NCBI GenBank assembly: GCA_032122355.1 | Contig: JAUMCS010000060.1 | Location: 9,312-73,311 of the forward strand | From: Burkholderiaceae bacterium | GTDB lineage: Bacteria; Pseudomonadota; Gammaproteobacteria; Burkholderiales; Burkholderiaceae_C | Length of the DNA stretch: 64,000 nt | Direction: 5' to 3' | Shown here: positions 1 to 41,178 of the stretch, one piece after another | How positions within the stretch are numbered: the first letter of the stretch is position 1 | Layout: every line of letters starts with the position of its first letter | The notes under the pieces: generated by a model | What the model saw: the letters and a program-made list of their open reading frames with translations, nothing else | The model's database searches: none | Told to the model about the DNA's origin: nothing | Translations under genes and position numbers: made by a program

Positions 1-637
1 AATTATAAGGCAATGCCGAAAGCGCAACAAAAGGTGACTCCTTATTGAAGTACTCCAATTTAGCCAGAGCATCCTTATCCGACGTAAATAACAAAGCTTT
101 GACACGTTCTGCATCATTTAAGTCACGAGTAAGGTAGTATTTTAGCTTGTAGGTGTCAAACTGTTGTTGAGTGATGTTTTTTTCATAGTAGTCTTCTACT
201 GCCTGCTGAGAGATCATATCCAGCAACTCCTGACGCTTTAATCGCAAGAACAAACCCGACAGCAAATCACGCTCTGCCGCACGCAAAGCATCTCTAGACT
301 CTATAGGGTATAAAGACCTTGCCGCATTAGCGACCAATACCTTATTAATGGTTCTATCAACAGCAATAGCACGATCGACACCAGATTCGAGCAAGAGCTT
401 GATGTCAGAACCCGTTATTTTTTCATCATTAACTACAGCAAGCGTATCGCTCAAGCTCATCTCACTAGCGGAAATTTTAACGGCAGACCCTTCAGATATT
501 GACCCCACTGCTTTTATAGCCCAATAGGCGATCAGACACAAAACAAAAATAAATAACACACCAAAAATCATCCATTTCTTAGGAAGCTGCTGGAGAATCA
601 CTTTCGCACCATTCTGAATTATCGAGAGCGTTTTCAT
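1..637 (-). CDS. membrane-anchored SurA-N/parvulin-like peptidyl-prolyl isomerase or chaperone, partial (C-terminus beyond window edge)
   Basis: Absent from the ORF track because there is no stop in the window. Manual reverse translation from the ATG at 637-635 stays open for 212 codons to position 1: MKTLSIIQNGAKVILQQLPKKWMIFGVLFIFVLCLIAYWAIK...LAVVNDEKITGSDIKLLLE... It has an N-terminal TM helix followed by a segment resembling SurA_N/PpiD-type domains. Same strand and AT-rich composition as the upstream genes. Confidence 0.45.
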   Translation of the reverse strand, partial: MKTLSIIQNGAKVILQQLPKKWMIFGVLFIFVLCLIAYWAIKAVGSISEGSAVKISASEMSLSDTLAVVNDEKITGSDIKLLLESGVDRAIAVDRTINKVLVANAARSLYPIESRDALRAAERDLLSGLFLRLKRQELLDMISQQAVEDYYEKNITQQQFDTYKLKYYLTRDLNDAERVKALLFTSDKDALAKLEYFNKESPFVALSALPYN

Positions 638-668
638 AGATGATAAAATTATTTATGAATAATCTATA

Positions 669-1154
669 TTAATTATTAAGGGTTTTAACTTCACGCTGAA
701 ATGGCTGAATCACAGCATACAGCGCATTTTCTTTATCGCATTTCCCAACACAAACCGATGGAGCACCCCACATCAAATTTTTGCCACCATAGTGCTGGGC
801 AGCCATTAAGGCCAAAAACCAACGCTCATACAGATCAGGTGTTTTTCCGCTCAAAACCAACGTGTCAGCACCAGGCTCTATGCTGACCCCAGGGTGCATA
901 ATTTTCAATGTGTTGGCAATTTCAATGATTTTTTCGCCTGCAAGTGGCTTCTTGGTTATTTCAAGTCGGTTCTGTGGGGTGTTAATGTAGGTTTGAGATT
1001 CTTCGATTTGATCCCGAGCTTTCATATATTTCTTCACCGAAAAAGACAACATAAAAGATGCCGCGACCAAACCCAAAATAATTGCCACACCTAAAATTTG
1101 TAGGTTTAGCACATTCCGGAGGACATCCCACTGGTTGGATAAGCCAATTCTCAT
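669..1154 (-). CDS. hypothetical bitopic membrane protein (possible GspM/PilO-like assembly component)
   Basis: 161-aa ORF with a short N-terminal tail, one TM helix (ILGVAIILGLVAASFMLSF) and a periplasmic domain of about 110 aa. It sits downstream of the ATPase/platform genes. The functional call rests on topology and position only. Confidence 0.35.
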   Translation of the reverse strand: MRIGLSNQWDVLRNVLNLQILGVAIILGLVAASFMLSFSVKKYMKARDQIEESQTYINTPQNRLEITKKPLAGEKIIEIANTLKIMHPGVSIEPGADTLVLSGKTPDLYERWFLALMAAQHYGGKNLMWGAPSVCVGKCDKENALYAVIQPFQREVKTLNN

Positions 1155-1180
1155 ATCACGTTCCTCACATAGTTTTGCTT

Positions 1181-2089
1181 TTACTGATCAAATACGACAT
1201 AACTCTTTGCAGTTACAACCACGCCCTGGTCACCCATGACTGACCGGTAGTTCCCTCCAAAAGGCTCAAGATAATCCTTTGAAATCCATTCAGGCAGCAC
1301 AATTTCAAAACTTTCTTTGCCGTCGATGACTGCGTATTGATTGATCCACCCGCCAGCCTTAATCGTGTTTGACGATATGTACTGCATTCGGTATAAAACT
1401 AGCGATAAAGCGGAAACACCATCTAAAGATGAAATTATTTTTGCGTAGTTGCGTAAATCATCCTCTTTCGCCGTCTTGAATTGAGAACGATCATACTTCG
1501 ACTGATTCATATCCCCCAAGAATGAGAATATCACAGATAGCAATAGGATTATAACAAGTATAATGCCGCCAACAATCGTTAAGATCTTAGAAACCCTGTT
1601 GGTTAATTTTAAGACTTCAGACTTGAAGGAAGAAAATCTCCATATTCCAGTTATTGAATCATCAACCTTATAAACAGGAACATCCAAATCATTGACATAA
1701 TTCTCAATCAAATAAGATTCATTTGCAATGTACCTAATAACTCCATTCTTCACCTCGACCATGGCAGAAATTGGCGCACCCTCTTGCAAGTAACAACCAT
1801 CCCCTCTAAAATTAGGATGCCCTGGCAGCGATAACGATAACGGGAAAGCCATGTCTTCCGCCGCACCTAATTCAGTTGAAGGTACAGCTAAATAGTGAAC
1901 AACCAAACGCTCTTGATCATAGGAAGTAATAACGTGAACATTTTCTGTACCCAAAAGATCCAGCAGCGCAAAAGTGACGACTGAACTTGCATCTTTTCTA
2001 TCAGATGGTAAGGTGCCGGCGACTATGGATGTATAGATTCTCTCAGTTTTTTTGTTAGGATTCATTAGAAAACCATTAGTTGTTGACAC
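1181..2089 (-). CDS. hypothetical bitopic membrane protein (possible GspL/PilM-PilN-like component)
   Basis: 302-aa ORF with a cytoplasmic N-domain of about 165 aa, one central TM helix (ILTIVGGIILVIILLLSVIFSFLG) and a periplasmic C-domain of about 110 aa. It overlaps the platform gene by 14 nt, suggesting translational coupling. The function is inferred from topology and context. Confidence 0.35.
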   Translation of the reverse strand: MSTTNGFLMNPNKKTERIYTSIVAGTLPSDRKDASSVVTFALLDLLGTENVHVITSYDQERLVVHYLAVPSTELGAAEDMAFPLSLSLPGHPNFRGDGCYLQEGAPISAMVEVKNGVIRYIANESYLIENYVNDLDVPVYKVDDSITGIWRFSSFKSEVLKLTNRVSKILTIVGGIILVIILLLSVIFSFLGDMNQSKYDRSQFKTAKEDDLRNYAKIISSLDGVSALSLVLYRMQYISSNTIKAGGWINQYAVIDGKESFEIVLPEWISKDYLEPFGGNYRSVMGDQGVVVTAKSYVVFDQ

Positions 2090-3317
2090 CTTGCAATAGG
2101 TATTTATTTTGAATATAAACCACCCAAAGAACGAGTAAAACGGTAATGCCAGTGTAAATCAGAGAAGAAATAAATCCAAAAATAGCGAATATCTTGGATG
2201 CAGACGTACTCAGCTCTTCTCGGGCATGTGCTATATTTTCAAACACACCACACAACTGCTCTTGTGTGGCATGGGAAGCAATTAGTAAGCTCTCGGAGGG
2301 AAGAAAAAGTTTTGAAGATAGTGCAGCTATGACATCAGAACCCGACTCTAATTTCAGTTTTACTTTTACCCAAATGGAAGCCACTTGCGGCATCTGGGCT
2401 GAACGACTGGCAATATCAAGCGTATCTATGAATGAGACCCCACCCCTCATCATGCGTGCAGATACACCTGCCGATGAGGCTATAGATGCATGAAAAAGTG
2501 CACGCCCAAGGCCTGGAATACGACCGATAATTTGCGCGGATGTGTTCTTGATATGTGGCGAAGCATTTTGAAAACCCAGAAAAAGCAATATACCGACAAC
2601 TAGCAGCAGAATAGCTGTGAACGCGAGCACATCACAAGCCAAAGTGGATACATGTATGGCTTGCAAAAACTCTAATTTATGTTCTTCCTTTTTGATATCA
2701 CTCGCTTGTTTCATCAGCATAGGCAGAAATTGAATACGTAGCCCTAAGATTGACACAATCGCAAAAATCATATCGATAAAGGTCCAGGATACAGCTCCAA
2801 TTAACGCCTTAAAAGATTTATTACTACTTTGGATATGGGCAATAGTTGCTCTAATTGAATCACGCACACCTCCGCTTGATTCGCCAGACTCTAACATTGC
2901 CAATGAGGTTGAATCAAATAATTTTAATGCTTTTATAGCTTCTGTGAAAGAAGCACCTGAACTCAAAAGCTCGAGCGCTTTGGTTGATTTAATAGGTAGT
3001 TTGCTGGGCAAATCCTCCAAAACTTTGTTTAAAGCTTTTCCCGGCGTCATACCTCCCTCTACGCAAAATAAAATCGCTTGCAAAATTCGAGCGCCAAGCT
3101 CCTGATTCTGAGGTTTTACAAAATACAATTGGAAAGAAGATACTTGACTGATGGCAATAACAATACCTCCTTGGGATGCGATAGAATTGACAACCTGCTG
3201 CTTATTGTCAGCAGACATTAGAAGTCGAACCTTTTGATAATCGCTCATTGAAATACTAGATTCCATCAACATACCATCTGCACTTGGCTTTAAAAAGGTT
3301 ACTCGGAAAGTTCTCAT
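2076..3317 (-). CDS. type II secretion / type IV pilus platform protein, GspF/PilC family
   Basis: 413 aa. It has the duplicated soluble-domain plus TM-segment organisation typical of T2SS-F proteins and lies directly downstream of the GspE-type ATPase. Confidence 0.7.
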   Translation of the reverse strand: MRTFRVTFLKPSADGMLMESSISMSDYQKVRLLMSADNKQQVVNSIASQGGIVIAISQVSSFQLYFVKPQNQELGARILQAILFCVEGGMTPGKALNKVLEDLPSKLPIKSTKALELLSSGASFTEAIKALKLFDSTSLAMLESGESSGGVRDSIRATIAHIQSSNKSFKALIGAVSWTFIDMIFAIVSILGLRIQFLPMLMKQASDIKKEEHKLEFLQAIHVSTLACDVLAFTAILLLVVGILLFLGFQNASPHIKNTSAQIIGRIPGLGRALFHASIASSAGVSARMMRGGVSFIDTLDIASRSAQMPQVASIWVKVKLKLESGSDVIAALSSKLFLPSESLLIASHATQEQLCGVFENIAHAREELSTSASKIFAIFGFISSLIYTGITVLLVLWVVYIQNKYLLQGVNN

Positions 3318-3325
3318 AGGGTAAT

Positions 3326-5086
3326 TTAGACTCTGAGCATTTCTTTTGCAAGTATATGATCTATCGCTCCAACTTGTAATAAGTTCTTGATAGAATCAGT
3401 TCTGGTTGTATATGCCATACCTGAATATTGATTGATAATATCTAGTAATGAATAAGTTCCGCTAGCTAGTTTAATAGAGACTTCAGATTTTGTTTGATCA
3501 TCAATATCAACCATTAAGGTCTCAGCCACTAGTACTCGCCCCATGGTTCCTTCGTCATTACATTTTTGACAACCATTGCGTACCATGATACCGGCATTAC
3601 TTTCTAAAGAAATGCCAATATCTGCGAGCTCCGTCTGCATAACACTAAAATCCGAAATGGTCGCTGGTGTGGCACAACTACATAGCTTTTTCATTAATCT
3701 TTGGTTGAATAACAGTCGTAAGGTATGACCCAAAGTGACTAATGCCTCACGCCTACCGTCTCCTTCAAAGAAGGATATAAAGCGATCATAAGTTTGCATA
3801 ACAGATGAAGCGTGAATAGTAGCCATCACCATATGCCCACTCTCCATAAATTTCAATGCGGCATGAGCCGTATCGGCATCCCGAATTTCACCCAAAATAA
3901 TAACATCAGGATCTTGCCGCAACAATGAACGCTCAGTTCCACGAGATGTTTCATGGAAAATCTGATTGATTTGAATTTGCCGCGCAAAGGGTAATTTGTA
4001 CTCTACAGGATCTTCCACCGTCACAACGTTCAAGGCATCTCTGGGCAAATTCTGAGCGATCGCATATAAGGATGTCGTTTTACCTGAACCTGTGGGCCCA
4101 GAGAATAGCACCAAGCTACCTGTTTTAGCCCGCACAGATGTTAAAAGCTTAACAAAGGACCTAACCCGAAGGTCGGCAAAAAACAGTTTCTCAAATGATG
4201 GTAGGGCCAATGGATCCAGCACCCGAATAGCAATGGTTTCTCCATCTGCCAAAGGCTGACTTGCAACCCGCAAGTCTATTTGTCTATTGGCATACTCAAA
4301 ACTTAAACGTCCATCTTGTGCGTCTCGGTTGTTCGAAGCATCAAGGCCCGCATCGATTTTAATTCGAGCAAAAATGGCCGACATTATTCTAGTGTCGACC
4401 AAATGTGCCTGCACCAAAACACCGTCAATGCGGTACGAAATCCAAGAATCGGGGTCTGCTTTTTTATCCAAGTGAATATCAGAGGCTCTCTTCTTCATAG
4501 CCTCTGTGAATATGGCATAAATAACCATGGATAGCTGCTGGGGAGTTATCGTACTCATACGAATTTCGTCAAGCAGCATATACAAAACAGCTGTAATCTT
4601 TTTAAGTCGTTCAATTTCAGCATTTACCTGCTGCAAGGATGCCAATTTTATAATGAGATAATTTACTTTATATATGCAACTTTCCAATATTTTTCTTTTT
4701 TCATTTGCATTTTGCGGCCTCGATGTCATAACCGTTAGTGCATCATCAGTCACAGATAATGGTACCAATTTATAGTACTGGCATATGCTTATAGGTAATA
4801 GTAGTGTGTCTTCTTCTTTTTTAAATGATATAGGCTTAGTTTGCGCATCAACCCCTTCGACTGAGCTCGTTATAAACTTATCCTGTAGCAATATTTCCTT
4901 AACACTAATATTTCTACCTAGGTTACTTAGAGCAATCCTTTTTTTAACAGCTATGTCAATCTGATGCTTACTTACTAATCCATCTTTAAGATATGCTCCA
5001 AACACCTTGTCGGTAATAGCGGTGCCTTGACTATTGCTTGTCAAGCCACCATCACCGGAACCTTGGTTTTGCTCAAGTTTACTCAT
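3326..5086 (-). CDS. type II secretion / type IV pilus assembly ATPase, GspE/PilB family
   Basis: 586 aa. Walker A motif GPTGSGKTT, Asp box/Walker B (DPDVIILGEIRD), His box, a tetracysteine motif (CSC...CQKC), and an N-terminal T2SSE_N-like segment (LLLPISICQYYKLVPLSVTDDALTVMTSRP). Confidence 0.9.
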   Translation of the reverse strand: MSKLEQNQGSGDGGLTSNSQGTAITDKVFGAYLKDGLVSKHQIDIAVKKRIALSNLGRNISVKEILLQDKFITSSVEGVDAQTKPISFKKEEDTLLLPISICQYYKLVPLSVTDDALTVMTSRPQNANEKRKILESCIYKVNYLIIKLASLQQVNAEIERLKKITAVLYMLLDEIRMSTITPQQLSMVIYAIFTEAMKKRASDIHLDKKADPDSWISYRIDGVLVQAHLVDTRIMSAIFARIKIDAGLDASNNRDAQDGRLSFEYANRQIDLRVASQPLADGETIAIRVLDPLALPSFEKLFFADLRVRSFVKLLTSVRAKTGSLVLFSGPTGSGKTTSLYAIAQNLPRDALNVVTVEDPVEYKLPFARQIQINQIFHETSRGTERSLLRQDPDVIILGEIRDADTAHAALKFMESGHMVMATIHASSVMQTYDRFISFFEGDGRREALVTLGHTLRLLFNQRLMKKLCSCATPATISDFSVMQTELADIGISLESNAGIMVRNGCQKCNDEGTMGRVLVAETLMVDIDDQTKSEVSIKLASGTYSLLDIINQYSGMAYTTRTDSIKNLLQVGAIDHILAKEMLRV

Positions 5087-5104
5087 GCCAGTATATTTAG
5101 GATA

Positions 5105-5857
5105 TTATTTGGATGCTGCACCAGTCGCAGTGTTAACAGCTGACTGTCGCACACCTCCATCCAAACCACCACCGGGCCCCTCCAATTTGCGTTCAGCAAT
5201 GGTCGTGCTTATAAAATTGGTATCGATGCTGGCTTTATATATAATACGTGTTGATTTATTTGATCCGTTCTCATCTGCAGAATTCGGCAACCAATATAGT
5301 GCGACTGAATCTGGCTGTACCCGTGCAATGACGCGGTAACCAGCAAAGTAATCAATGACTTCACCATCCCTAATAATGTAACTTAAATTCTTCTGCTGCC
5401 CTAAGCCACCTGGCGCACCAGCGGACTGACTAGCACCAGTAATCGTTGACTGCCCCCCTTGTCCAACTGACGTTTGCGTGCGTAGCATCGCCACTTTATC
5501 TAGAATAGCAGTCACAAATAATCCATTGACACTTTGCGTAAGTGCCTCGGGTATTGTCATAGCTTCCTGCTCCGGTTTGAGCGGATCACCAATCATAGGC
5601 AAATTACCACTTGATGAATTTAAAGCACCCGGAAGAGGACTTTTAGAAACTGATCCAGTTTGCTCATGGGCTCTCTCGCTTCTGCTACCAGCCACACTGG
5701 ATTGCTCAGAAACATATGATTTAGGGGGCCGTATCAAAGGGTTATTTATAATGGGCTGAGCATACAATACTTTCATTGCACCCATGAAACCCATCAACAA
5801 CGTGAGCCGAATGCAAAATTTTCTCAATATATATATTAATTTTCGGCTTTCCCCCAT
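5105..5857 (-). CDS. secreted/periplasmic protein of the secretion cluster (possible PilP/GspC-like secretin partner)
   Basis: The track ORF is 5105..5887. The ATG at 5857 (MGESRKLIY...) lies 1 nt after the secretin stop and is the likelier start. It has a hydrophobic signal/anchor (LTLLMGFMGAMKVLYAQP), a Ser/Gly/Gln-rich linker and a beta-rich C-domain (LSYIIRDGEVIDYFAGYRVIARVQPDSVALYWLP). Confidence 0.4.
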   Translation of the reverse strand: MGESRKLIYILRKFCIRLTLLMGFMGAMKVLYAQPIINNPLIRPPKSYVSEQSSVAGSRSERAHEQTGSVSKSPLPGALNSSSGNLPMIGDPLKPEQEAMTIPEALTQSVNGLFVTAILDKVAMLRTQTSVGQGGQSTITGASQSAGAPGGLGQQKNLSYIIRDGEVIDYFAGYRVIARVQPDSVALYWLPNSADENGSNKSTRIIYKASIDTNFISTTIAERKLEGPGGGLDGGVRQSAVNTATGAASK

Positions 5858-5858
5858 A

Positions 5859-7343
5859 TTAATCCTTAGATATATTTTGATTGTCACTATATTCTTTTAT
5901 CATCGATGGACGCACGAGCTCAGCCGGCAACAACGTATCAGTTTTACCTACATCATTCACCCCGTTGCTTGAAAAGTGAAGTATCCTCGGCCGTAATGCA
6001 ATGACCAATTCGGATCGATTATTGCTTTCGTTCTTGGAACTCTGACCTATAGAGTTAATCACATCTCCATTATCCCGCCTTGCACTAATGCCGCCTAGTA
6101 TTACCACATCCCCCGCCCTGGCTCTCATGATTGAATTGACGTTTCTTTCTGCTACCGTCGGTAAGGTAATCGTAGTTGTTCCTGCTGTTTTATCTTCAAT
6201 CTTCACTAGGTCAGATAAACTGAGTGAAATCTTGGTGTAGATACTCCCCTCGTGTACCTCTCCGAACAAAGCCAGATCAAATCCAGTTTTAACCTGACTG
6301 GTTTCTACCGTCGTTAACGAACCCGAGACACCACCAAGAACGGTACCAACTTTGCTCACAATCGTAGTGTTTTCACCAACACGTAAACTACCCTTAGTGC
6401 CAGAGAGCAAGGCCATGCGCGGCTGAGAAATGAGCCTTGCCGTGCCCTGCGAATTCAAAAAAGCAACAAAAGTATTCAGATTAAATTTATCGCCCGATAT
6501 TACTATATTTCCCACTTCATTGCTTGCCCCAGAAACCAAGAACTGTGCTGGCCTTTGCGATGCTTGCCAAATCAACGAATCCCACCTTATGCCATTCGAC
6601 TTCGATTCACTGAGGGTTACTTGATATACATGAATTTCATACAATAAAATAGATCTAGTTTTTCTCAAATAGGCCAAATACTGCTCAATGTTTTTTGCAC
6701 CATTACGGTTTGTTTTGTAGCTCACTGTTCTATTAAGCCTATCCAGATAAATATCACTGGCTCCGAGATACTGCATAGTGTTGGTTAGTCCGGCAGTGGT
6801 GTCCTCTGCTAGGGCTGGCGGCAGCTCCAGCACAAATGTCTCCTCAGGCACGATAGTTAGCAAATTGTTTCGGTAAGTGTAGAAAAAACCTATAGACTCA
6901 GAGATACGGTCGATTAACTGCGGTAATGTTCCTGTAAGTTTGACCGTCACTATATGTGCGTACTTATCCGCCAACTTAGGATTTCCATCCACCATCAGAC
7001 CTATCGAATAAGGCGCCAACATAATCCGTAAGGCATCCATATAACCTGCGTAACTCATGCTAATTGTCATGATCCTTCCATCGTCAGGAAGAGGATCAGA
7101 TGTCCGCATAGAACGCACAGAAAATGAACGTGACTCCTGCAAAGATTCAATTTGAATCTCAGAATCTTTGAATTCATCTCCTAGAGTTGATAATCTTTCA
7201 GGCCCTTCCGGATATTCAACACCCTGATTAGGCCGCAAGTAAGACTGGCAACCCGATAAGATAAGAATTGAACAAATGACTGATACAAGATAGAAAAAAT
7301 TTCTCACGCTTGCATCAGATTGTTTTAATTTAGTTCTATTCAA
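5859..7343 (-). CDS. secretin-family outer-membrane channel, lipoprotein type (T4bP/T2SS-like)
   Basis: 494 aa with a TTG start. Lipobox LILSGC at the N-terminus. The C-terminal secretin-domain pattern is ISQPRMALLSGTKGSLRVGENT...TLPTVAERNVNSIMRARAGDVVILGGI...SELVIALRPRIL. Confidence 0.85.
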   Translation of the reverse strand: MNRTKLKQSDASVRNFFYLVSVICSILILSGCQSYLRPNQGVEYPEGPERLSTLGDEFKDSEIQIESLQESRSFSVRSMRTSDPLPDDGRIMTISMSYAGYMDALRIMLAPYSIGLMVDGNPKLADKYAHIVTVKLTGTLPQLIDRISESIGFFYTYRNNLLTIVPEETFVLELPPALAEDTTAGLTNTMQYLGASDIYLDRLNRTVSYKTNRNGAKNIEQYLAYLRKTRSILLYEIHVYQVTLSESKSNGIRWDSLIWQASQRPAQFLVSGASNEVGNIVISGDKFNLNTFVAFLNSQGTARLISQPRMALLSGTKGSLRVGENTTIVSKVGTVLGGVSGSLTTVETSQVKTGFDLALFGEVHEGSIYTKISLSLSDLVKIEDKTAGTTTITLPTVAERNVNSIMRARAGDVVILGGISARRDNGDVINSIGQSSKNESNNRSELVIALRPRILHFSSNGVNDVGKTDTLLPAELVRPSMIKEYSDNQNISKD

Positions 7344-7344
7344 C

Positions 7345-10300
7345 TTACTTTCCTCTGATCTCGTCTCTATTTTTTTGATTAACTAGAGAAGTTTTCAGTT
7401 TAAAACGAATTGCATCACTTACCACTCCATAATTACCCGCATGGTCTACAACTCTAGCACTCAATGTTTTATCCCCATCTATACCCCAGTCTTTTCTACT
7501 CACAAGAAAATCCACGTACTGGTTGATGACATCAGTTGCTTCTATGCGTTTAGACTTCTCAATCGCAAAAGGGACACCATTCAGGAGCAGCTCAACCCTG
7601 TCTGCATATGATAATTCATTTTCACCCATAACTACCCTAATTGTCTTAGGAGTTGTCGCCTCGGCTAAGTTCATCCACCCATCAACCAAATCGCTACTTC
7701 CCCATTCCTTCACCATCGGCTTGTCAGGTACACTTGTTACCCGGGTAAACCTTATTGAACTTCTATCCGCACTAACATTACCTGCTTTGTCTGTAATCAC
7801 AGCTGTGATAATCTTCTCTCCATCAAAACCGAAGTCTTTCCCATCTACTACAAATTCAACAAACCCCCTTGTTAGATCAAGGGAACTGACATTTTTTGAT
7901 TGCGCATATGATAAACCATTTATTAATAAATCTACCCTGTCAGCCTCTTGAATTTTAGTGGCACCCATCATGTTAGGCAAATGAACTCTGATGGTCTGTT
8001 TTTTTTGTGCCTCCTGAGCATTAAGCCATCCATCGGCCAAATCTAATGTGGCTGTTTGCGATAATAAAGCAGCCCCAGGCGGTTCAGTATCAAACTCAAA
8101 TGTAATTGGTTTGCTCTTTGGCCCCTTGTTGCCCGACTGACTAATCACCTGCGCCGTCACCGACTTCAATCCGTCATTTCTCAATTCTGATGCGTTGAGT
8201 GAAAATTCAACGCGGCCTGTTCTTTGCGCGTTAATGTCAACAAGTTTGCTTTTATGACTCTCAAATGATGAACCGTTCAATAGCAATTCAATCGTATCAC
8301 CGACCTGAATTGATTCCTTTGCTACATCGGGTAGAACGACCTCTATACTTAATCCCTTACTGATTTCATTAGCGTTGACGTAGCCATCCGCTGTAAAGCT
8401 ATTGTCTTTTTCTACCAATGTTGGCATTGCAGGTACTAACCCAGAAACTGCAAAATTTAGTGCATCGCTGAATTTACCCACATTGCCTGCTTTGTCTATC
8501 AAGCGAACTTTTAATTCTTTGGGCCCATCTGCCCCCCACTCAGCTCCCTGCAAAACCATATCATAGTATCCCCTTGATAAGTCATCTGCATTCAAGGTCA
8601 TCTGCTTTGAGAGCCCCAGCATCTCTCCATTTAACCAGGCCTCTATACGACCACTCTCTGCTGCCACATTCCTCAAGCGCGATAATTCAATTCTGATATT
8701 TGTAGTTTTCCTCAGTTCAGCTGCATTCAACCAACCATCCGCCAAATGGTTAGTTCCGAACTCTATCAAACCCGGAGCATCGGGCATTTTTCGTACTAGT
8801 TTAAATAAAAATTCACCGTATGCGAGACCCACATTACCAGCACGATCAATAAAACGAGCAGTGATATTTTTATCTCCATCAGCATCCAAATCTGCACCCG
8901 AGAGTGAGAATTGAATACGTTTAGATTCGATTTCTTCTTTAGAAAGTGATTTAACTTTAGGAATTGAAAAAGGAAAGCCATTTAAAAGGAGCTCAACTTG
9001 ATCCCCTGGCACAAATTCATTACTGCCAGGTAGTAAAACCACCTTCACCCCTTTTAGCCGGCTTGACTGATCTCGATTCATGAAGCCGCTTAAAGGTGGC
9101 AAATCCATAAGCTCTAATGACACCGATGCCACAGGTGCCTTACGTTTCAAATTAAACGTAATCTTGTTTCCGAAGGGGCCTTTGTTACCTGCTCGGTCAA
9201 TCATGCGAAGGGTAAGAATCTTACGTCCATCTTCCCCGAGATTGGTCACATTCAGCGGTATATCAATATATTCTTTATCCGCATCAACTTGCTCTATAGT
9301 CTTTGAAAGAAGCAACGCATCATTGAGCAGCATCTCAATCTGATCACCCACTTTGACATCGTCATTTTTAGGTAAAACCACCCTCAAAGTTTTCGATTGC
9401 AGGGCTTCTTGAGCATTTAACCAACCATCCTCCAGATCAGGTGCCCCAACTTGCTTGAGTTGCAGTTCTGGTGGGAGTTTGGAGTCATAGAAAAAACTCA
9501 TGGGCACACGGGTAACATTGCCGTTTCCTGCAGGATCTTCGATTTTAGCTGTGATTTCCTTTGGCCCATCCTCTCCGAGATCGGAGGTTGCCAAACTGAA
9601 ATCGACGAAGCTGCTTAGCTTGTCTTTTTCATTCACAATCTTTGAACACGCGACACCACATAAACGCCCATTGATGAATAACTCCACTTTACTTCCGCTC
9701 ACCAATTCCGGCGATGCACGATCCATAGAAATGCGGAATTTATGTTGGCTTTTAGCTTCCTGCACATTTAACCAGCCATCACTGAGGTAAGACCCTCCGA
9801 CTTGTTCTATTTTTAATTCAGCAGGTGATTTTCTGTTCAGAATAAATTTTATCTCATTAGAGAATGCACCCACGTTTCCAGCTCTGTCGATCAATCTGGC
9901 GCTCAGCGATTTAATCCCATCATCACCCCACTCAACAGGATCAACTTGAAATTCAACATATTGATTTCGGACATCCAGAGCATCAATTTTCCTCTTTTTA
10001 CTTTGATGGAACCCCGCATGATTCACGAATAATTGGACTTCATCACCTATTTCAACAGAAATCTGACGCAGATCGACTCTCATCTTAAAAGACTCTATCG
10101 CCGCTTTTGCACTCAAATATCCGTTAACTATCGCTCCCGTCCGACTTTCTTTCAAACTGGGCGCAATTGGCTTATTTGTTTGCAATCTAAACTCGATGGA
10201 CCTACTTTCTCGACCGATATTTCCTGCTTTGTCTATGATTCGGCTAGCTATTGTCTTGAAGCCATCTCGCCCCAAATCTTTGGAACCGATCGAAAAATCA

Positions 10301-13068
10301 ACATAGCCGTTTTTGACGTCATCTTCCGCCAAAACCACACGTTTTATTTGCTTTTTCCCCTCATCTCCGATCAACAATTCGGCTGAGTCACCAATGATCT
10401 CAACAGGAGTACTCACTTTAGGTAGAAATACCCGCACAAGTTTCGGGCTCTGCACCTCAACCGAGTTTACCCAGCCATCACTAAAATGCGAGGTTACTTC
10501 CCTAATATCTGGCGGCTGCGGGTTTGTTGTATCTAAATAAAAATCAGCAACTATCTCAGGTAGGGAAGAATTCCCAGCTTGATCAAATATTCTGATGTAA
10601 ATCTTTTTGCTACCGTCCGCACCCAGATCTTTTGGCGGAAGCTCAAAATCTACCACTTTGTTTGTAATATCTTTAGACTCAATAACTTTAATTTTGGGCA
10701 AAGCAAAGGAAAAACCATTAAGCATCAACTCCAGTCTATCCCCTATATTCCATTCATGAACTAAAGCATCGAGTTCAACCCTAAAAGTCTGCAATTTAGC
10801 TACCTGCTCGGCATTCATCCATTTGCCACGAAAAATGGGATCGTTCCTCATTCGGAGTGACTTTGCTGAATCCAGTGTCGGCACCGGCAAAGAACGTGCG
10901 GAAGGAAGATGTTCAACTTGATTCTCATCCGCCTTCAAATTGTTCTTGCTGTCAGGCTGCTTGTTATCAAGTTTGATAATTTTTTTAGACCTAGTTTCTT
11001 CCACACCATACTCTTTTTTAGCCTTCAGAGAGTCACGGGCACCATCTTTAGTACTCTGCTCAGTAACAGTCTGGTTTTCTTGCTGATGCGAAATCTCTGT
11101 TTGTGCAGCCGGAATTTCCAACTCAAGAATAGACAATTTGTTACCTGGCGCCTGCTGATGGGGCTCTATCAAATTCTTTTGATCCACAGAGGCTGTGGTG
11201 CGATTCATAGGAGTTACACTGGCCGACCGTATCTCCACTGGTGCATCTATAACTATCGGATCAGATAATTTTTTTCTTTGTGAATGTGACGTTACATCAT
11301 CTTCTGTACCGTTGACGACTATCTCATTACCGATTACGCTGTTGTTTGCTTGGTCACTCAACTCAGCCTGTAAGACATATCCTCTACTTTCATTCAAATA
11401 TTCTTTTGGAACATAGAGATAGACAAAACCACGGCTTGCATCCTCATTGGTCAATAATTGGTTAATTGGGATTAATTGTTTTTCTTTTATGATCCTTAGC
11501 TCAGCCTTATCCCCTTTATACATTCTTAATGCTTTTGATGGCCACTCGAGCTTAATTCGTTTTTTACCCCCCTCTTCCGCTATTTCAATACCAAGCATGC
11601 CCCCTCGTGGCCCCGATGGTCTTGGGCTTACCAACTTGGGGGATTCCAATCGGTTTGTTTCCGAAATTAAGGAATTTGGGGGAATTTGAGATGTTGCCTC
11701 AGGAACCACTTCAGGAACCACTTCAGGAACCACTTCAGGAACCACTTCAGGAACCACTTCAGGAACCACTTCAGGAACCACTTCAGGAACGACTTCAGGA
11801 ACGACTTCAGGAACGACTTCAGGAACGACTTCAGGAACGACTTCAGGAACGACTTCAGGAACGACTTCAGGAACGACTTCAGGAACGACTTCAGGAACGA
11901 CTTCAGGAACCACTTCAGGAACCACTTCAGGAACCACTTCAGGAACCACTTCAGGAACCACTTCAGGAGCCACTTCAGGAACCACTTCTAACGCAGGTTG
12001 ATCTTGAACACTATTGGGCTCACTAACTTGGCTGGGTGCTTTGGAAATAGGAGTGAGTGCCATCGAATTATCATGCTCACCCAATATCTCAAGAGGCACA
12101 AGTTCAGTAGCCATCGAAACATCGACTGTATCCAGTATGAATCGAATTTCAGCACTCAACTCACTTCGGAAACCGTCTGAAGTTTGAATTCTGGCAGAGA
12201 GTGTTTTTTCACCATCAATACCCAAGTCCATGACGGTCAACTCAAACTCAACCGCAGGCGAAGGCGATTCGAGCAATACCGTTTTGCGGGGATGAAATGG
12301 CAATCCATTGAGGAGTAATTCAACCCAATCACCCGAGTTAAATTTTTTATCCACTCCTTCATAGTTAACTTGGATAAGCCTGTTTCGCTTAATTTCAGCA
12401 AAATCAAGAATACTATCCGACAAATCTTGCGAACCCTTCTCAGAGAGCAACAACCTGGCGAACGTCTCCCGCAACTGCGGTATCTTGCGAACTGGAGGGA
12501 GAGGTTCAACCCGCTCAACCAAGGCAACCTTCTCTTCTGGTGCCTCGTTCGGCTTAGGTGCCGCAGCCTGCGACTTGACGACTTCCACCACAGACGGTTT
12601 TTTGCTGTTTTTATCGACTAATGAGGGCTTGCTTTGAGCCAGGCTGAGCGATGGGGGTGGCAGTTTACCTAAAACCAAACTATAGAGTCTGGACTCAACA
12701 CCAGAGGGCTCAACCCACTCCAACATCAAGTCTAAAAAAGCATCCGTAGCTGCAACCTTGGACTTGATAACGAGCATAATTTTTTTTGCCGACCCCACCT
12801 CGATAGTTACGTCTGCATCTCGCAAAACAGCGGGAAACTCAAGGCCATTGCGCCTGTATCCCTCAGGCGAAGATAACCTCAAACCTTTACTAAGCAAAGC
12901 ACCCGATATTTCATCTGAAATCGGAACTTCAATGCGCAATGAGCCCGCCCCGGTAATCAGAACTTTGGGCTGACCTATTCCAACCGGCCATTGAGCAAAT
13001 GCAGTTCCTACAGCTCCTGCCACAAAACAAGCACGTACTGCTGCTAAAAGTAAATTTTTAGAAAACAT
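7345..13068 (-). CDS. giant secreted protein: FimV-core-like N-domain + (EVVP)n linker + at least ten Ig-like repeat modules
   Basis: The track ORF is 7345..13083 (TTG start). The ATG at 13068 (MFSKNLLLAAVRAC...) matches the paralogue's start. Signal peptide ends ...GTAFA/QW. The N-domain GIGQPKVLITGAGSLRIEVPI...LSSPEGYRRNGL...FLDLMLEWVEPSGVESRLYSLVLG resembles the FimV core domain as I recall it. At least ten modules of about 100 aa share the motif DGW(L/V)N...GD.(V/I)ELLLNG...YV(D/E)F...DG.K.(I/L).A(R/K).(I/T)D(R/K)AGN. Confidence 0.85.
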   Translation of the reverse strand: MFSKNLLLAAVRACFVAGAVGTAFAQWPVGIGQPKVLITGAGSLRIEVPISDEISGALLSKGLRLSSPEGYRRNGLEFPAVLRDADVTIEVGSAKKIMLVIKSKVAATDAFLDLMLEWVEPSGVESRLYSLVLGKLPPPSLSLAQSKPSLVDKNSKKPSVVEVVKSQAAAPKPNEAPEEKVALVERVEPLPPVRKIPQLRETFARLLLSEKGSQDLSDSILDFAEIKRNRLIQVNYEGVDKKFNSGDWVELLLNGLPFHPRKTVLLESPSPAVEFELTVMDLGIDGEKTLSARIQTSDGFRSELSAEIRFILDTVDVSMATELVPLEILGEHDNSMALTPISKAPSQVSEPNSVQDQPALEVVPEVAPEVVPEVVPEVVPEVVPEVVPEVVPEVVPEVVPEVVPEVVPEVVPEVVPEVVPEVVPEVVPEVVPEVVPEVVPEVVPEVVPEVVPEVVPEATSQIPPNSLISETNRLESPKLVSPRPSGPRGGMLGIEIAEEGGKKRIKLEWPSKALRMYKGDKAELRIIKEKQLIPINQLLTNEDASRGFVYLYVPKEYLNESRGYVLQAELSDQANNSVIGNEIVVNGTEDDVTSHSQRKKLSDPIVIDAPVEIRSASVTPMNRTTASVDQKNLIEPHQQAPGNKLSILELEIPAAQTEISHQQENQTVTEQSTKDGARDSLKAKKEYGVEETRSKKIIKLDNKQPDSKNNLKADENQVEHLPSARSLPVPTLDSAKSLRMRNDPIFRGKWMNAEQVAKLQTFRVELDALVHEWNIGDRLELMLNGFSFALPKIKVIESKDITNKVVDFELPPKDLGADGSKKIYIRIFDQAGNSSLPEIVADFYLDTTNPQPPDIREVTSHFSDGWVNSVEVQSPKLVRVFLPKVSTPVEIIGDSAELLIGDEGKKQIKRVVLAEDDVKNGYVDFSIGSKDLGRDGFKTIASRIIDKAGNIGRESRSIEFRLQTNKPIAPSLKESRTGAIVNGYLSAKAAIESFKMRVDLRQISVEIGDEVQLFVNHAGFHQSKKRKIDALDVRNQYVEFQVDPVEWGDDGIKSLSARLIDRAGNVGAFSNEIKFILNRKSPAELKIEQVGGSYLSDGWLNVQEAKSQHKFRISMDRASPELVSGSKVELFINGRLCGVACSKIVNEKDKLSSFVDFSLATSDLGEDGPKEITAKIEDPAGNGNVTRVPMSFFYDSKLPPELQLKQVGAPDLEDGWLNAQEALQSKTLRVVLPKNDDVKVGDQIEMLLNDALLLSKTIEQVDADKEYIDIPLNVTNLGEDGRKILTLRMIDRAGNKGPFGNKITFNLKRKAPVASVSLELMDLPPLSGFMNRDQSSRLKGVKVVLLPGSNEFVPGDQVELLLNGFPFSIPKVKSLSKEEIESKRIQFSLSGADLDADGDKNITARFIDRAGNVGLAYGEFLFKLVRKMPDAPGLIEFGTNHLADGWLNAAELRKTTNIRIELSRLRNVAAESGRIEAWLNGEMLGLSKQMTLNADDLSRGYYDMVLQGAEWGADGPKELKVRLIDKAGNVGKFSDALNFAVSGLVPAMPTLVEKDNSFTADGYVNANEISKGLSIEVVLPDVAKESIQVGDTIELLLNGSSFESHKSKLVDINAQRTGRVEFSLNASELRNDGLKSVTAQVISQSGNKGPKSKPITFEFDTEPPGAALLSQTATLDLADGWLNAQEAQKKQTIRVHLPNMMGATKIQEADRVDLLINGLSYAQSKNVSSLDLTRGFVEFVVDGKDFGFDGEKIITAVITDKAGNVSADRSSIRFTRVTSVPDKPMVKEWGSSDLVDGWMNLAEATTPKTIRVVMGENELSYADRVELLLNGVPFAIEKSKRIEATDVINQYVDFLVSRKDWGIDGDKTLSARVVDHAGNYGVVSDAIRFKLKTSLVNQKNRDEIRGK
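11701..11988 (-). repeat. perfect in-frame 12-bp tandem repeat, 24 units, encoding (EVVP)n inside the giant gene
   Basis: Counted by hand on the + strand. The order is 7x aggaaccacttc, 10x aggaacgacttc, 5x aggaaccacttc, 1x aggagccacttc, 1x aggaaccacttc. The c/g variant is synonymous (GTG vs GTC Val). Confidence 0.95.
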
Positions 13069-13258
13069 GCCTTGAAAGTCCAATCCTCATCGATTCAATC
13101 CTATGAACTTTAAATTTTTAGCAATACTACATTTTTCATAATTGGTGCAGTATATCAAAAAGATAGCGAGGCCTGTTCTCGGATTGACTGAGCCCAAGGA
13201 ATTTCACGACACTTCAATTTAATTACATTGAAACCAGCAAGATCGAACCTTGTTATTT

Positions 13259-32753: not shown

Positions 32754-32765
32754 CCCACCCTCGTT

Positions 32766-41169: not shown

Positions 41170-41178
41170 AGACCCCTT

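What the first reader, a model, noticed from the sequence alone, without database searches (positions are those of the whole stretch)
1..7343. Self-contained T2SS/T4P-like core (D-C-E-F-L-M order) with no pilin and no own prepilin peptidase in view
The order is secretin, PilP/GspC-like, GspE ATPase, GspF platform, a 302-aa bitopic protein with GspL-like topology, a 161-aa bitopic protein with GspM/PilO-like topology, then a membrane-anchored PPIase-like protein. The ATPase, platform and secretin are recognisable. The other four proteins have no motif I can place and are called only from topology. A second, canonical pilBCD set exists at 55-59 kb, so this is an additional machine. No prepilin-type N-terminus (G/FTLxE) occurs in any ORF of this block. 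The system therefore either borrows pilins and PilD from elsewhere, has them beyond the window edge, or works without a (pseudo)pilus. The PPIase association is unusual for these systems.
Basis: partly seen in the sequence, partly recalled or inferred. Interest (0 to 1): 0.7.

Follow-up and report, generated by a model that had tools for sequence, protein, structure and literature searches.

The report
Unnamed pilus-like machine exporting tail-fibre adhesin
The block is a real, extra pilus/secretion-type machine, cut by the window edge; it belongs to an unnamed gene module seen in six lineages that carries its own odd pilin-like genes just outside the window and, in relatives, a phage-tail-fibre-like protein.

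Summary
The ORFs and their order are real: lipoprotein secretin, 250-aa periplasmic protein, GspE/PilB-type ATPase, GspF-type platform, 294/302-aa and 161-aa bitopic proteins, and a truncated PpiD-like protein. The block is not self-contained. Upstream, one base from the secretin start, lie two paralogous FimV_N/Ig-repeat genes (446 and about 1907 aa). Downstream, contigs 93-98% identical to the window show the 289-aa Rotamase_2 protein. Two pilin-like genes follow, with a leader, Gly|Phe and about 20 hydrophobic residues but no Glu5, and then a large gene.

The same ten-gene order recurs in Noviherbaspirillum pedocola, a Steroidobacteraceae MAG, Burkholderiales metagenome contigs, and conjugative plasmids of Rhodoferax ferrireducens and (truncated) Methylibium petroleiphilum. 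In most relatives examined the large gene is a tail-fibre-like protein (Peptidase_S74, or a separate tail-fibre chaperone gene).

The 302-aa family (135 clusters at 50% identity) has no Pfam model. AlphaFold gives it a GspL-like architecture (pLDDT 92), though fold matches are weak. No core protein reaches any NCBIfam cut-off for T2SS, T4aP, T4bP or MSH.

Most likely this is an unnamed type IV filament system that uses Glu5-less pilins, probably cut by the host PilD, to export or display a large adhesin. I rate it a new variant of a known kind.

The parts
1..636 (-). 5' part (212 codons) of a membrane-anchored PpiD/SurA-like parvulin-domain protein, 289 aa in full and cut by the window edge
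   Evidence: Translation; ATG at 636. The full-length orthologues in L003 and L005 are 289 aa, with Rotamase_2 at 6.4e-7 (30.7 bits, cut-off 27). The gene holds the same position in five of six lineages (not called in the truncated Methylibium copy).
669..1154 (-). 161-aa bitopic protein, with size and topology like GspM/PilO; its fold was not tested
   Evidence: One TM at about 18-40. Invariant W112, Q120, Y122, W129 and C135-x3-C139 across six orthologues. No Pfam, NCBIfam or PDB hit. A 154-163-aa gene sits in this position in every relative.
1181..2089 (-). 302-aa ORF (probable start at 2065, giving 294 aa): GspL-like bitopic assembly-platform protein from a family with no model
   Evidence: A profile search found 135 clusters at 50% identity, all about 270-340 aa. 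None of 101 members scanned has a Pfam hit. AlphaFold pLDDT is 91.9, showing an N-terminal alpha/beta domain, a long TM/periplasmic helix at 155-222, and a C-terminal alpha-beta-beta-alpha-beta-beta domain. Foldseek's best hits are an actin-like ATPase fold (E 0.04) and the PulM C-terminal domain (TM-score 0.46-0.53, normalised to target length); none is significant.
2076..3317 (-). 413-aa GspF/PilC-type platform protein, very divergent
   Evidence: T2SSF 1.2e-17. The best NCBIfam hits are ComGB at 51 bits, GspF at 37.5 and PilC at 37, all far below cut-offs of 240-700. The only PDB hit is Myxococcus PilC at 36.7 bits.
3326..5086 (-). 586-aa extension-type ATPase in a clade of its own, equidistant from GspE and PilB
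   Evidence: T2SSE 1e-78 and MshEN at 24.4 bits. GspE model 247 bits and PilB model 244 bits, against cut-offs of 630 and 676. PDB: PilB 177, GspE 174 and BfpD 79 bits. About 120 relatives listed at 37-53% identity and 388-610 bits.
5105..5857 (-). 250-aa Sec-exported periplasmic protein, a candidate PilP/GspC-HR-like connector
   Evidence: A signal peptide is followed by the conserved mature N-terminus QPIIxNPLxRP, a low-complexity linker, and a conserved C-terminal block including (I/V)(I/V)R(D/N)G(E/Q), in three lineages. No HMM or PDB hit. Other annotations call it 250 aa.
5859..7343 (-). 494-aa lipoprotein secretin
   Evidence: Secretin 6e-13. NCBIfam: MshL 70 bits, R64 PilN family 52.8 and GspD 28.9, all below cut-offs of 250-351. 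The best PDB hit is the BfpB lipoprotein secretin at 49 bits. The lipobox LILSGC is visible in the sequence.
7345..13068 (-). About 1907-aa Sec-exported protein with an FimV_N Ig-like domain, a (PEVV)n linker and about 12 Big_13-type Ig repeats; it belongs to the same transcription unit as the secretin
   Evidence: FimV_N 31.7 bits and Big_13 4.9e-16. Only the N-terminal signal segment is hydrophobic. Its stop lies 1 nt before the secretin start. No such gene appears in the four metagenome/genome relatives whose Pfam gene tables were read; the two plasmid copies show none by product name only.
11699..11988 (.). 12-nt x 24 tandem repeat that encodes the (PEVV)n linker of the giant protein
   Evidence: Tandem Repeats Finder: 98% matches, score 503.
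13259..14599 (-). 446-aa paralogue of the giant protein's N-terminus (signal peptide, FimV_N, linker, one Ig repeat)
   Evidence: FimV_N 5.4e-10. 67% identity to the giant protein over its first 220 residues, and 44% over the first Ig repeat.
55256..56194 (-). Host prepilin peptidase PilD, the only candidate in view to process the module's pilin-like proteins
   Evidence: A24_N_bact 1.5e-29 and Peptidase_A24 3.3e-24. No peptidase gene is present in any of the six related clusters examined. Its use by this system is an inference.

Best explanation
Window 1-14.6 kb holds most of a horizontally acquired, low-G+C operon. The operon encodes a member of a conserved but unnamed type IV filament (T4F) system.

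The conserved module has ten genes in fixed order: lipoprotein secretin, a periplasmic connector of about 250-285 aa, a GspE/PilB-type ATPase, a GspF-type platform, a GspL-like bitopic protein, a GspM-sized bitopic protein, a membrane-anchored PpiD-like chaperone, pilin-like A, pilin-like B, and a large Sec-exported fibre protein. The last three lie just left of the window.

Proposed mechanism:
- Shown: the gene set, its order and its conservation; the ATPase, platform and secretin identities; the GspL-like architecture; the class-III-type N-termini without Glu5; and the tail-fibre nature of the large protein in relatives.
- Inferred: the host PilD cuts pilins A and B at the invariant Gly|Phe. 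The ATPase, acting through the platform and the L/M-like proteins, assembles them into a short filament under the secretin. The 250-aa protein links the platform to the secretin.
- Inferred: the fibre is exported by Sec, folded with help from the PpiD-like chaperone, and trimerised by its own S74 domain or a tail-fibre chaperone. It docks through its conserved ~220-aa N-terminal domain and is pushed through the secretin to the cell surface. There it acts as a variable receptor-binding adhesin.
- Inferred for this lineage: the two FimV_N/Ig-repeat proteins co-transcribed with the secretin are probably additional cargo or surface-anchored adhesins.
For: Synteny:
- The same order and gene sizes occur in the window lineage and in L009/L010.
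- They also occur in Noviherbaspirillum pedocola L011, Steroidobacteraceae MAG L012 and Burkholderiales contig L013.
- They also occur on the Rhodoferax ferrireducens plasmid L014; the Methylibium petroleiphilum plasmid L015 keeps the order only as far as four unnamed small genes before a Tn3 transposase.

Pilin-like genes:
- Pilin A reads [KR]xxG|F(I/V)(Q/G/M)(G/A/P/N)x followed by about 20 hydrophobic residues, with an invariant C155...C205 pair.
- Pilin B reads G|(F/I)xx(S/A/G)Y, with an invariant Tyr at +5.
- The pattern holds in each lineage where the N-terminus could be read: pilin A in six (its start is miscalled in L012) and pilin B in seven; the Methylibium copy was not read.
- The N-termini of A and B are homologous (hhalign E 4e-6).
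- In a low-confidence AlphaFold model of pilin A, the top two of only 13 Foldseek matches are a type IV pilin.

L-like protein.

Fibre:
- Peptidase_S74 and many PHROG tail-fibre families, with E down to 7e-24.
- The Rhodoferax copy has a separate Phage_tail_APC chaperone gene instead (1.8e-24).
- Four fibres share a conserved N-terminal domain with invariant LGYC...C...GDD, followed by divergent remainders.

Operon link of the giant gene to the secretin.

The DNA beyond the window edge comes from strains 93.5-97.7% identical to the window.
Against: - No experiment exists for any member, and no paper was found.
- No pilin HMM reaches its family cut-off for A or B; the only related hits are far below it (E 0.2 and 0.0014). 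The pilin A model has pLDDT 57, and its pilin match is not significant (E 0.68).
- Glu5 is described as absolutely conserved in bacterial T4P (PMC10710030). Proteins lacking it may therefore not polymerise in the usual way, or may not be pilins at all.
- The fold matches of the L-like model are all above E 0.001.
- The large gene of the window lineage itself could not be read. Only its first 23 codons and its length (at least 718 aa in the 53% relative) are known. Its tail-fibre nature here is extrapolated from relatives.
- The FimV_N/Ig genes appear in none of the four relatives whose Pfam gene tables were read, so their link to the machine rests on adjacency alone.
Confidence: 0.55

Rival explanations
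1. The system is a true extended pilus of the type IVb kind, comparable to the R64 thin pilus. Pilin A is the major subunit, and the tail-fibre-like protein is the tip adhesin. It mediates cell-cell attachment, for example mating-pair stabilisation for the mobile element that carries it.
For: - Two copies of the module sit on conjugative plasmids, next to PRTRC or integrase genes.
- The secretin is a lipoprotein. Its best solved relative is BfpB, and its next-best plasmid hits are R64 PilN-family secretins.
- The order secretin...ATPase-platform-pilin...variable adhesin parallels R64 pilN-pilQ-pilR-pilS...pilV (from my own knowledge of R64).
- The fibre region varies between strains that share an identical ATPase (L009 versus L010).
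- Pilin A has a conserved Cys pair like a pilin D-region.
Against: - Every pilin-like protein lacks Glu5, which is conserved in all bacterial T4P.
- The fibre has a Sec signal peptide, not a prepilin leader.
- The cluster has no prepilin peptidase, lytic transglycosylase or retraction ATPase.
- The ATPase is much closer to PilB and GspE (174-177 bits) than to BfpD (79 bits).
- GspL-like and GspM-sized partners, together with Sec-exported cargo and a periplasmic chaperone, fit a secretion-type machine better.
Confidence: 0.25
2. The machine has no filament subunits of its own. It either works without a (pseudo)pilus or borrows major pilins from the host T4aP system. The two small downstream proteins are simply bitopic accessory proteins.
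For: - No canonical prepilin motif occurs anywhere in the window.
- No pilin HMM reaches its cut-off for the downstream proteins.
- Their lack of Glu5 resembles tip or initiator minor pilins such as GspK (my own knowledge), which need a Glu5-bearing major subunit beneath them.
Against: - An invariant Gly followed by Phe/Ile and about 20 hydrophobic residues, after a short basic leader, occurs in two paralogous families in every lineage where it was read.
- These genes are always present and always sit at the same place in the module.
- The module occurs on plasmids and in unrelated genomes, so dependence on a particular host major pilin would be fragile.
Confidence: 0.12
3. The cluster is a decaying remnant with no current function.
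For: The region has low G+C and is island-like. The Methylibium copy is truncated by a Tn3 transposase. In L007 the PPIase gene is split into two ORFs.
Against: All ORFs in the window are intact and tightly spaced. They are conserved as intact ORFs in strains 93-98% identical and in relatives at 53% and 76% protein identity. The catalytic motifs of the ATPase are present.
Confidence: 0.03

Closest known systems
Type II secretion system (Gsp/Pul/Eps)
   Same: - Secretin, GspE-type ATPase with a tetracysteine motif, and GspF-type platform.
- A bitopic protein with GspL-like architecture, followed by a GspM-sized bitopic protein.
- Candidate cargo that is Sec-exported and encoded beside the machine.
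- No retraction ATPase.
   Different: - No core protein reaches its NCBIfam equivalog cut-off (GspE 247/630, GspF 37.5/424, GspD 29/351).
- The secretin is a short lipoprotein of the T4b/MSH type.
- There is no GspG-K set. Instead there are two or three pilin-like proteins, all lacking Glu5.
- There is no GspO. The gene order is D-C-E-F-L-M-PPIase-pilins.
- A dedicated PpiD-like chaperone is present, and the cargo is tail-fibre-like.
Type IVb pili of plasmids and pathogens (R64 thin pilus PilN-V; BFP; TCP/CFA-III)
   Same: - Lipoprotein secretin whose best solved relative is BfpB, with R64 PilN-family secretins as the next-best plasmid hits.
- Secretin-x-ATPase-platform-pilin order, and carriage on conjugative plasmids.
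- A variable adhesin or secreted protein encoded at the end of the operon, as with PilV, TcpF and CofJ (my own knowledge).
   Different: - The ATPase scores 79 bits to BfpD but 174-177 to PilB and GspE.
- The PilN-family model scores 52.8 bits against a cut-off of 288.
- The pilins lack Glu5.
- The adhesin has a Sec signal and a phage tail-fibre/S74 build rather than being a minor pilin.
- There is no PilU/BfpP/TcpJ peptidase and no PilT-like transglycosylase.
MSHA pilus system (MshE/G/L)
   Same: The best NCBIfam hit of the secretin is MshL (70 bits). The ATPase has a weak MshEN domain (24.4 bits).
   Different: - The MshL score is far below the cut-off of 250.
- There are no MshI/J/K, MshM/N or MshF equivalents, and no mshBACD-type canonical pilins.
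- The gene order differs.
Phage tail fibres and tailspikes with a C-terminal intramolecular chaperone (Peptidase_S74) or a separate Tfa chaperone
   Same: The large terminal gene of the module in relatives hits S74 and many PHROG tail-fibre families. One copy instead has an adjacent Phage_tail_APC gene. A conserved N-terminal docking-type domain is combined with a variable distal part.
   Different: The protein carries a Sec signal peptide and sits in a T4F operon with no other phage genes. The L-like protein has no match in 50,697 phage records or in IMG/VR.

Membership tests
Type IV filament superfamily (generic) | PilB/GspE-family extension ATPase | tested here: met
   T2SSE 1e-78. PDB PilB 177 bits and GspE 174 bits. 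Walker A, Walker B and the tetracysteine motif are visible in the sequence.
Type IV filament superfamily (generic) | GspF/PilC-family polytopic platform protein | tested here: met
   T2SSF at 64.5 bits, against a cut-off of 25.2, with two repeats. Three hydrophobic segments.
Type IV filament superfamily (generic) | Type IV pilin(s) with a class III signal peptide (Gly at -1, a hydrophobic stretch, Glu at +5) | tested here: inconclusive
   There are none in the window. Two families sit just downstream in orthologous contigs, each with a leader, an invariant Gly|Phe and about 20 hydrophobic residues. None has Glu5. No pilin HMM reaches its cut-off. The AlphaFold model has pLDDT 57, and its top Foldseek match is a type IV pilin at E 0.68.
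Type IV filament superfamily (generic) | Dedicated prepilin peptidase (A24) | tested here: not met
   None is present in the window block or in any of six related clusters. The host PilD at 55256-56194 is available.
Type II secretion system | GspD, GspE and GspF equivalogs | tested here: not met
   NCBIfam scores against cut-offs: GspD 28.9/351, GspE 246.7/630, GspF 37.5/424.
Type II secretion system | GspL (cytoplasmic actin-like domain, TM helix, periplasmic ferredoxin-like domain) | tested here: inconclusive
   The architecture matches in a model with pLDDT 91.9. However, the best fold matches are an actin-like fold at E 0.04 and the PulM C-terminal domain at TM-score 0.46-0.53, and none is significant. 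There is no GspL Pfam hit in 101 family members.
Type II secretion system | GspM and GspC | tested here: inconclusive
   The 161-aa protein has one TM and the right size. The 250-aa protein is Sec-exported and has a conserved C-terminal block. No HMM, PDB-sequence or profile hit was found.
Type II secretion system | Pseudopilins GspG-K (major GspG with Glu5) | tested here: not met
   Only two or three pilin-like genes occur per cluster, none with Glu5 and none reaching a Gsp pseudopilin model's cut-off.
Type IVa pilus | PilB/PilC/PilQ equivalogs and PilMNOP | tested here: not met
   PilB 244/676 and PilC 37/700. Identity to the window's own PilB is 32%, and the platform scores only 27 bits against the window's PilC. 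No PilM, PilN, PilO or PilP family hits.
Type IVb pilus (R64 PilN family; BFP; TCP) | PilN/BfpB-type lipoprotein secretin | tested here: inconclusive
   A lipobox is present. BfpB is the best PDB hit at 49 bits. The PilN-family model scores 52.8 bits against a cut-off of 288. Identity to R64-family secretins is 24-28% over the C-terminal half only.
Type IVb pilus (R64 PilN family; BFP; TCP) | T4b-type ATPase, T4b pilin with a long leader and Glu5, and its own peptidase | tested here: not met
   BfpD scores 79 bits against 177 for PilB. The leaders are 7-24 residues, there is no Glu5, and there is no peptidase.
MSHA pilus | MshL equivalog, MshE with a c-di-GMP-binding MshEN domain, MshI-K/M/N, and mshBACD pilins | tested here: not met
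   MshL 70/250. MshEN scores 24.4 bits, just above its cut-off of 23.1. No other Msh component is present, and the pilins are not canonical.
Tad/Flp pilus | TadA/CpaF ATPase, TadB/C, RcpA and Flp pilin | tested here: not met
   The TadA-family model scores 41.5 bits against a cut-off of 373. The platform is a single two-repeat GspF-type protein, and there is no Flp motif. Some database names for relatives ('TadA') are annotation transfers.
The unnamed module defined here (secretin-C-E-F-L-M-PPIase-pilinA-pilinB-fibre) | Ten genes in fixed order, with an L-like protein of the family recovered | tested here: met
   Seven of the ten genes are in the window. Genes 8 and 9, and the start of gene 10, are seen in contigs 93.5-97.7% identical to the window. 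The order is the same in five other lineages, one of them (Methylibium) truncated after four unnamed small genes.
The unnamed module defined here (secretin-C-E-F-L-M-PPIase-pilinA-pilinB-fibre) | The terminal large gene is tail-fibre-like (S74 or a Tfa-dependent fibre with the conserved LGYC...GDD N-domain) | not testable with these tools
   For the window lineage, only 23 codons and a minimum length are available. The DNA of the longer contigs was not retrievable.

The most novel reading that the evidence does not exclude
This is a distinct, mobile class of bacterial type IV filament machine in which every pilin lacks the otherwise universal Glu5. Pilin B has an invariant Tyr5 instead, which recalls the register-keeping Tyr6 of Tad pilins. 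The dedicated cargo is a phage-derived, Sec-exported trimeric receptor-binding fibre, folded by a cluster-encoded PpiD-like chaperone. In effect the cell presents a tail fibre on or through a pseudopilus, to recognise target cells for conjugation or other contact-dependent interactions. In the window lineage the machine has additionally captured giant FimV_N/Ig-repeat adhesins.
Probability: 0.35. Interest if true: 0.8.

Novelty: new variant of a known kind. Interest (0 to 1): 0.62.

Why it matters
If correct, this adds an unnamed branch to the type IV filament superfamily with three unusual traits:
- Its pilin-like subunits lack the Glu5 that is regarded as invariant in bacterial pilins. That offers a test of how such filaments register and assemble.
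- A PpiD-like periplasmic chaperone is a fixed part of the machine.
- A phage tail-fibre-type protein is the conserved partner. This links phage receptor-binding modules to a bacterial export or adhesion system carried on conjugative plasmids and genomic islands.

It also has a practical consequence. Current HMM sets leave six of the ten genes as 'hypothetical protein' in RefSeq.

Cultured hosts exist (Rhodoferax ferrireducens T118, Noviherbaspirillum pedocola, Methylibium petroleiphilum PM1), so the system is directly testable.

Tried and rejected
- A search of the 5.8-billion-protein set with only the first 51 residues of pilin A found nothing and wasted one capped search.
- Two pattern scans of GTDB representative genomes, with the L-like alignment and with pilin A, found no relative. 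The source genome is either not there or is masked, so the DNA left of the window could not be read from the source contig (77,761 bp).
- The two longest matching metagenome contigs (8757 and 8901 bp) gave gene tables but no DNA. The large downstream gene of the window lineage therefore stays unread.
- Sequence or profile searches of the PDB with the 302-aa, 161-aa, 250-aa, pilin A and pilin B families gave only chance-level hits.
- A profile-profile comparison of the 161-aa family with the L-like family showed no relation. A PilN/PilO-type paralogy is therefore not demonstrated.
The 161-aa and 250-aa proteins were not modelled.
- The promoter and terminator scan was at chance level.
- The ORFs at 30.5-34 kb, which resemble pilMNOP in size, turned out to be KdsD/KdsC/LptC/LptA/LptB-type genes.
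- A phage or prophage origin of the cluster was rejected. The L-like protein has no match in phage records or in IMG/VR.
- Seven literature searches found no description of this module. The held library is incomplete, so prior description cannot be excluded.

Full report
**1. What is in the window**

Positions 1-14.6 kb have 41-44% G+C, against about 51% for the other 50 kb. They carry one minus-strand gene array. From upstream to downstream it reads:
- A 446-aa protein (13259-14599) with a signal peptide and an FimV_N Ig-like domain (5.4e-10).
- A giant protein of about 1907 aa (7345-13068). It has the same N-terminus (67% identical over 220 residues), FimV_N at 31.7 bits, and Big_13/Ig repeats. 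Its (PEVV)n linker is encoded by a 12-nt x 24 tandem repeat at 11699-11988.
- A 494-aa lipoprotein secretin (5859-7343).
- A 250-aa Sec-exported protein (5105-5857).
- A 586-aa ATPase (3326-5086).
- A 413-aa platform protein (2076-3317).
- A 302-aa ORF (1181-2089), probably 294 aa from the ATG at 2065, as in its orthologues.
- A 161-aa protein (669-1154).
- A gene that starts at 636 and runs off the window edge.

The giant gene's stop codon is one base from the secretin start, with GAGGA just upstream. The array therefore reads as one operon. To the right lie housekeeping genes: class II aldolase, tRNA-Leu and IleRS.

**2. Check of the observation**

- Secretin, T2SSE and T2SSF are significant Pfam hits. 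The other four proteins have none.
- Hydrophobicity gives one TM in the 161-aa and the 302-aa proteins, three in the platform, and only an N-terminal signal in the secretin and the FimV_N proteins.
- The pilB-pilC-pilD set at 55.3-59.1 kb is canonical and very distant from the new set. The ATPases are 32% identical, and the platforms are barely alignable.
- No G-F-T-L-x-E-type N-terminus exists in any frame of the window.
- The description is therefore accurate, except for the claim that the block is self-contained.

**3. What lies beyond the left edge**

- The window comes from a 77,761-bp NCBI contig that the tools do not expose.
- Metagenome contigs stand in for it. L001 is 100% identical to window 36-4804.
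- L003 and L004 are 97.5-97.7% identical to the window. L005 and L006 are 93.4-93.5% identical. All four extend 0.4-1.7 kb further left.
- They show that the truncated gene encodes a 289-aa membrane-anchored protein with a Rotamase_2 (parvulin) domain (6.4e-7).
- Two further genes follow:
  - 230/234 aa: MSSVQMNQRG|FIQGVIIFALALIAIVVATL...
  - 223/224 aa: MKRLTQTKANG|FILSYVITAMAMISIAIAML...
- A large gene comes next. It is at least 320 aa in the near-identical strain and at least 718 aa in a 53% relative. Several assemblies break at exactly this point.

**4. The small proteins are pilin-like but not canonical**

- Both have a short basic leader, an invariant Gly, then Phe/Ile and about 20 hydrophobic residues. 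The pattern was seen wherever the N-terminus could be read: the window lineage, its 53% relative L007, L009, Noviherbaspirillum L011, L013 and the Rhodoferax plasmid for both families, and L012 for pilin B only (its pilin A start is miscalled).
- Family A has an invariant Cys pair (C155...C205) like a pilin D-region.
- Family B has an invariant Tyr at +5.
- The two N-termini are homologous (hhalign E 4e-6).
- None has Glu at +5. [quoted passage not shown] Its absence may be why pilin HMMs do not reach threshold and why RefSeq names these proteins 'hypothetical protein'.
- An AlphaFold model of pilin A from only seven sequences is poor (pLDDT 57). It shows an N-terminal helix followed by strands. 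The top two of its 13 Foldseek matches are the C. difficile type IV pilin PilA1, at E 0.68, which is not significant.
- I treat the pilin identity as likely, not proven.

**5. The 302-aa protein**

- The word-indexed search found only three clusters.
- A full HMMER profile search of 1.84 billion representatives found 135 clusters at E<=0.001. All are about 270-340 aa and match along their full length.
- None of 101 members has any Pfam domain.
- AlphaFold with this alignment gives pLDDT 91.9. The model shows three parts:
  - an N-terminal alpha/beta domain at residues 10-150;
  - one long helix at 155-222 that contains the TM segment;
  - a C-terminal alpha-beta-beta-alpha-beta-beta domain.
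- This is the GspL design.
- Foldseek with the whole model gives no hit at E<=0.001. The best hits are an actin-like ATPase-fold protein (3hrg, E 0.04), the PulM C-terminal domain (8a9x, TM-score 0.46-0.53 normalised to the target) and other actin-fold proteins. These are consistent with GspL but weak.
- The 161-aa and 250-aa proteins remain assigned by topology and position only.

**6. A conserved module**

- The ATPase has a large clade of relatives at 37-53% identity and 388-610 bits. That is far above its scores to the GspE and PilB models (about 245 bits) and to solved PilB, GspE and BfpD (177, 174 and 79 bits).
- The genomic context of four of these relatives was read: L009/L010, N. pedocola L011, Steroidobacteraceae MAG L012 and Burkholderiales contig L013.
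- All four show the same order and sizes: secretin, ~270 aa, ATPase, platform, ~280-350 aa, ~155-163 aa, Rotamase_2 protein, two or three proteins of 170-230 aa, and then a very large protein.
- A tblastn search of 72,556 plasmids with the L-like protein found exactly two hits, both on conjugative plasmids:
  - Rhodoferax ferrireducens T118 NC_007901.1, next to PRTRC genes;
  - Methylibium petroleiphilum PM1 NC_008826.1, next to an integrase and cut by Tn3.
  Both carry the same module, complete in Rhodoferax and cut short in Methylibium.
- No cluster contains a prepilin peptidase.
- Flanking genes differ everywhere, which fits a mobile module.

**7. The large terminal gene in relatives**

- It has a Sec signal peptide.
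- It has a conserved N-terminal domain of about 220 aa, with invariant LGYC...C...GDD.
- The middle part is divergent and hits PHROG tail-fibre and tailspike families, with E down to 7e-24.
- Three of the five fibres read (L009/L010, N. pedocola, L013) have a C-terminal Peptidase_S74 intramolecular chaperone domain; the L012 gene runs off its locus and was not scanned.
- The Rhodoferax copy lacks S74 but is followed by a Phage_tail_APC chaperone gene (1.8e-24).
- L009 and L010 share an identical ATPase but differ in this region.
- This is the build of a phage receptor-binding fibre: a conserved docking end and a variable distal end.

**8. Mechanism**

Shown:
- the parts list, its order and its conservation;
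- the ATPase, platform and secretin identities;
- the GspL-like architecture;
- the class-III-like N-termini without Glu5;
- the tail-fibre nature of the partner in relatives;
- the operon link of the FimV_N/Ig genes to the secretin in this lineage.

Inferred:
- The host PilD (55256-56194) processes A and B.
- The ATPase, platform and L/M-like proteins assemble them into a short filament.
- The 250-aa protein bridges to the lipoprotein secretin.
- The PpiD-like protein chaperones the Sec-exported fibre.
- The fibre docks by its N-domain and is driven through the secretin to the surface as an adhesin.

Reasons for preferring a secretion/display (T2SS-like) mode over a long pilus:
- all subunits lack Glu5;
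- the cargo uses Sec;
- a periplasmic chaperone is fixed in the module;
- L-like and M-sized partners are present;
- no retraction ATPase is present.

The long-pilus reading (R64-like, with a tip adhesin) stays open at about 0.25. It is favoured by the plasmid carriage and the T4b-like secretin.

**9. Comparison with known systems**

- No core protein reaches the curated cut-off of any NCBIfam equivalog for T2SS, T4aP, T4bP (PilN family), MSH (MshL), Com or Tad.
- Signals are mixed. The secretin is nearest to BfpB, MshL and PilN. The ATPase is nearest to PilB and GspE.
- The system works like a T2SS/T4bP hybrid, but it is not a member of any named subtype by the tests I could run.
- No paper describing it was found in the held library. 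That library is incomplete.

**10. Verdict**

- The finding is real and more interesting than 'a T2SS without pilins', but for a different reason. The pilins are there, just outside the window, and they are aberrant.
- The PPIase is a hallmark of an unnamed, mobile T4F module whose conserved partner in relatives is a tail-fibre-like protein.
- Novelty: new variant of a known kind.
- Main uncertainties:
  - the pilin fold and processing;
  - the identity of the large gene in this lineage;
  - the role of the FimV_N/Ig proteins;
  - the complete absence of experimental data.

Noticed in passing
window 40342-41170, 41580-45921: Type II CRISPR-Cas locus. Cas9 (1156 aa; HNH, RuvC) lies at 42451-45921 and Cas1 at 41580-42488. 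Beside them is an array of about 13 copies of the 36-nt repeat GTTGTAGCCCCCTCTCTCACCCCGGATTGCTACAAT with roughly 30-nt spacers.
   Followed up: partly
window 39186-40100: AbiEii-type nucleotidyltransferase toxin (8e-32) just upstream of the CRISPR array. Together they look like a small defence island.
   Followed up: no
window 11699-11988: A perfect-looking 12-nt x 24 tandem repeat (98% matches) encodes (PEVV)n in the giant FimV_N/Ig protein. It is a likely site of length variation between strains.
   Followed up: no
window 7345-14599: A tandem pair of paralogous genes shares a near-identical signal peptide and FimV_N domain. One has a single Ig repeat (446 aa) and the other about twelve (about 1907 aa). 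FimV_N is otherwise known from FimV/HubP-type proteins, so fusing it to an adhesin-like Ig array is unusual.
   Followed up: partly
L014 (Rhodoferax ferrireducens T118 plasmid NC_007901.1) 4852-20742: The plasmid copy of the module has two secretin-domain genes in tandem (471 and 622 aa) and two pilin A paralogues. Its fibre lacks S74, and a separate Phage_tail_APC chaperone gene follows. The module sits next to PRTRC genes.
   Followed up: partly
L009 vs L010, about 17.5-20 kb of each locus: Two metagenome contigs with identical ATPase proteins differ downstream of pilin B. L010 has three reverse-strand genes inserted ahead of a different S74 fibre gene. This suggests cassette exchange or inversion at the fibre locus.
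   Followed up: no
L003-L006 ends (0.4-1.7 kb left of window position 1): Independent assemblies of window-lineage strains all break either about 150 nt into pilin A (L003, L004) or 69 nt into the large gene (L005, L006). This hints at strain-level hypervariability or repeats at those points.
   Followed up: no
L007 1825-2687: In the 53% relative, the PPIase-like gene is called as two ORFs (138 + 149 aa). This is either a frameshift or an assembly error.
   Followed up: no
window 30540-34156: A run of ORFs whose sizes mimic pilMNOP is in fact a KdsD-like (SIS+CBS), HAD phosphatase, LptC, LptA and LptB-type set, followed by RpoN.
   Followed up: yes
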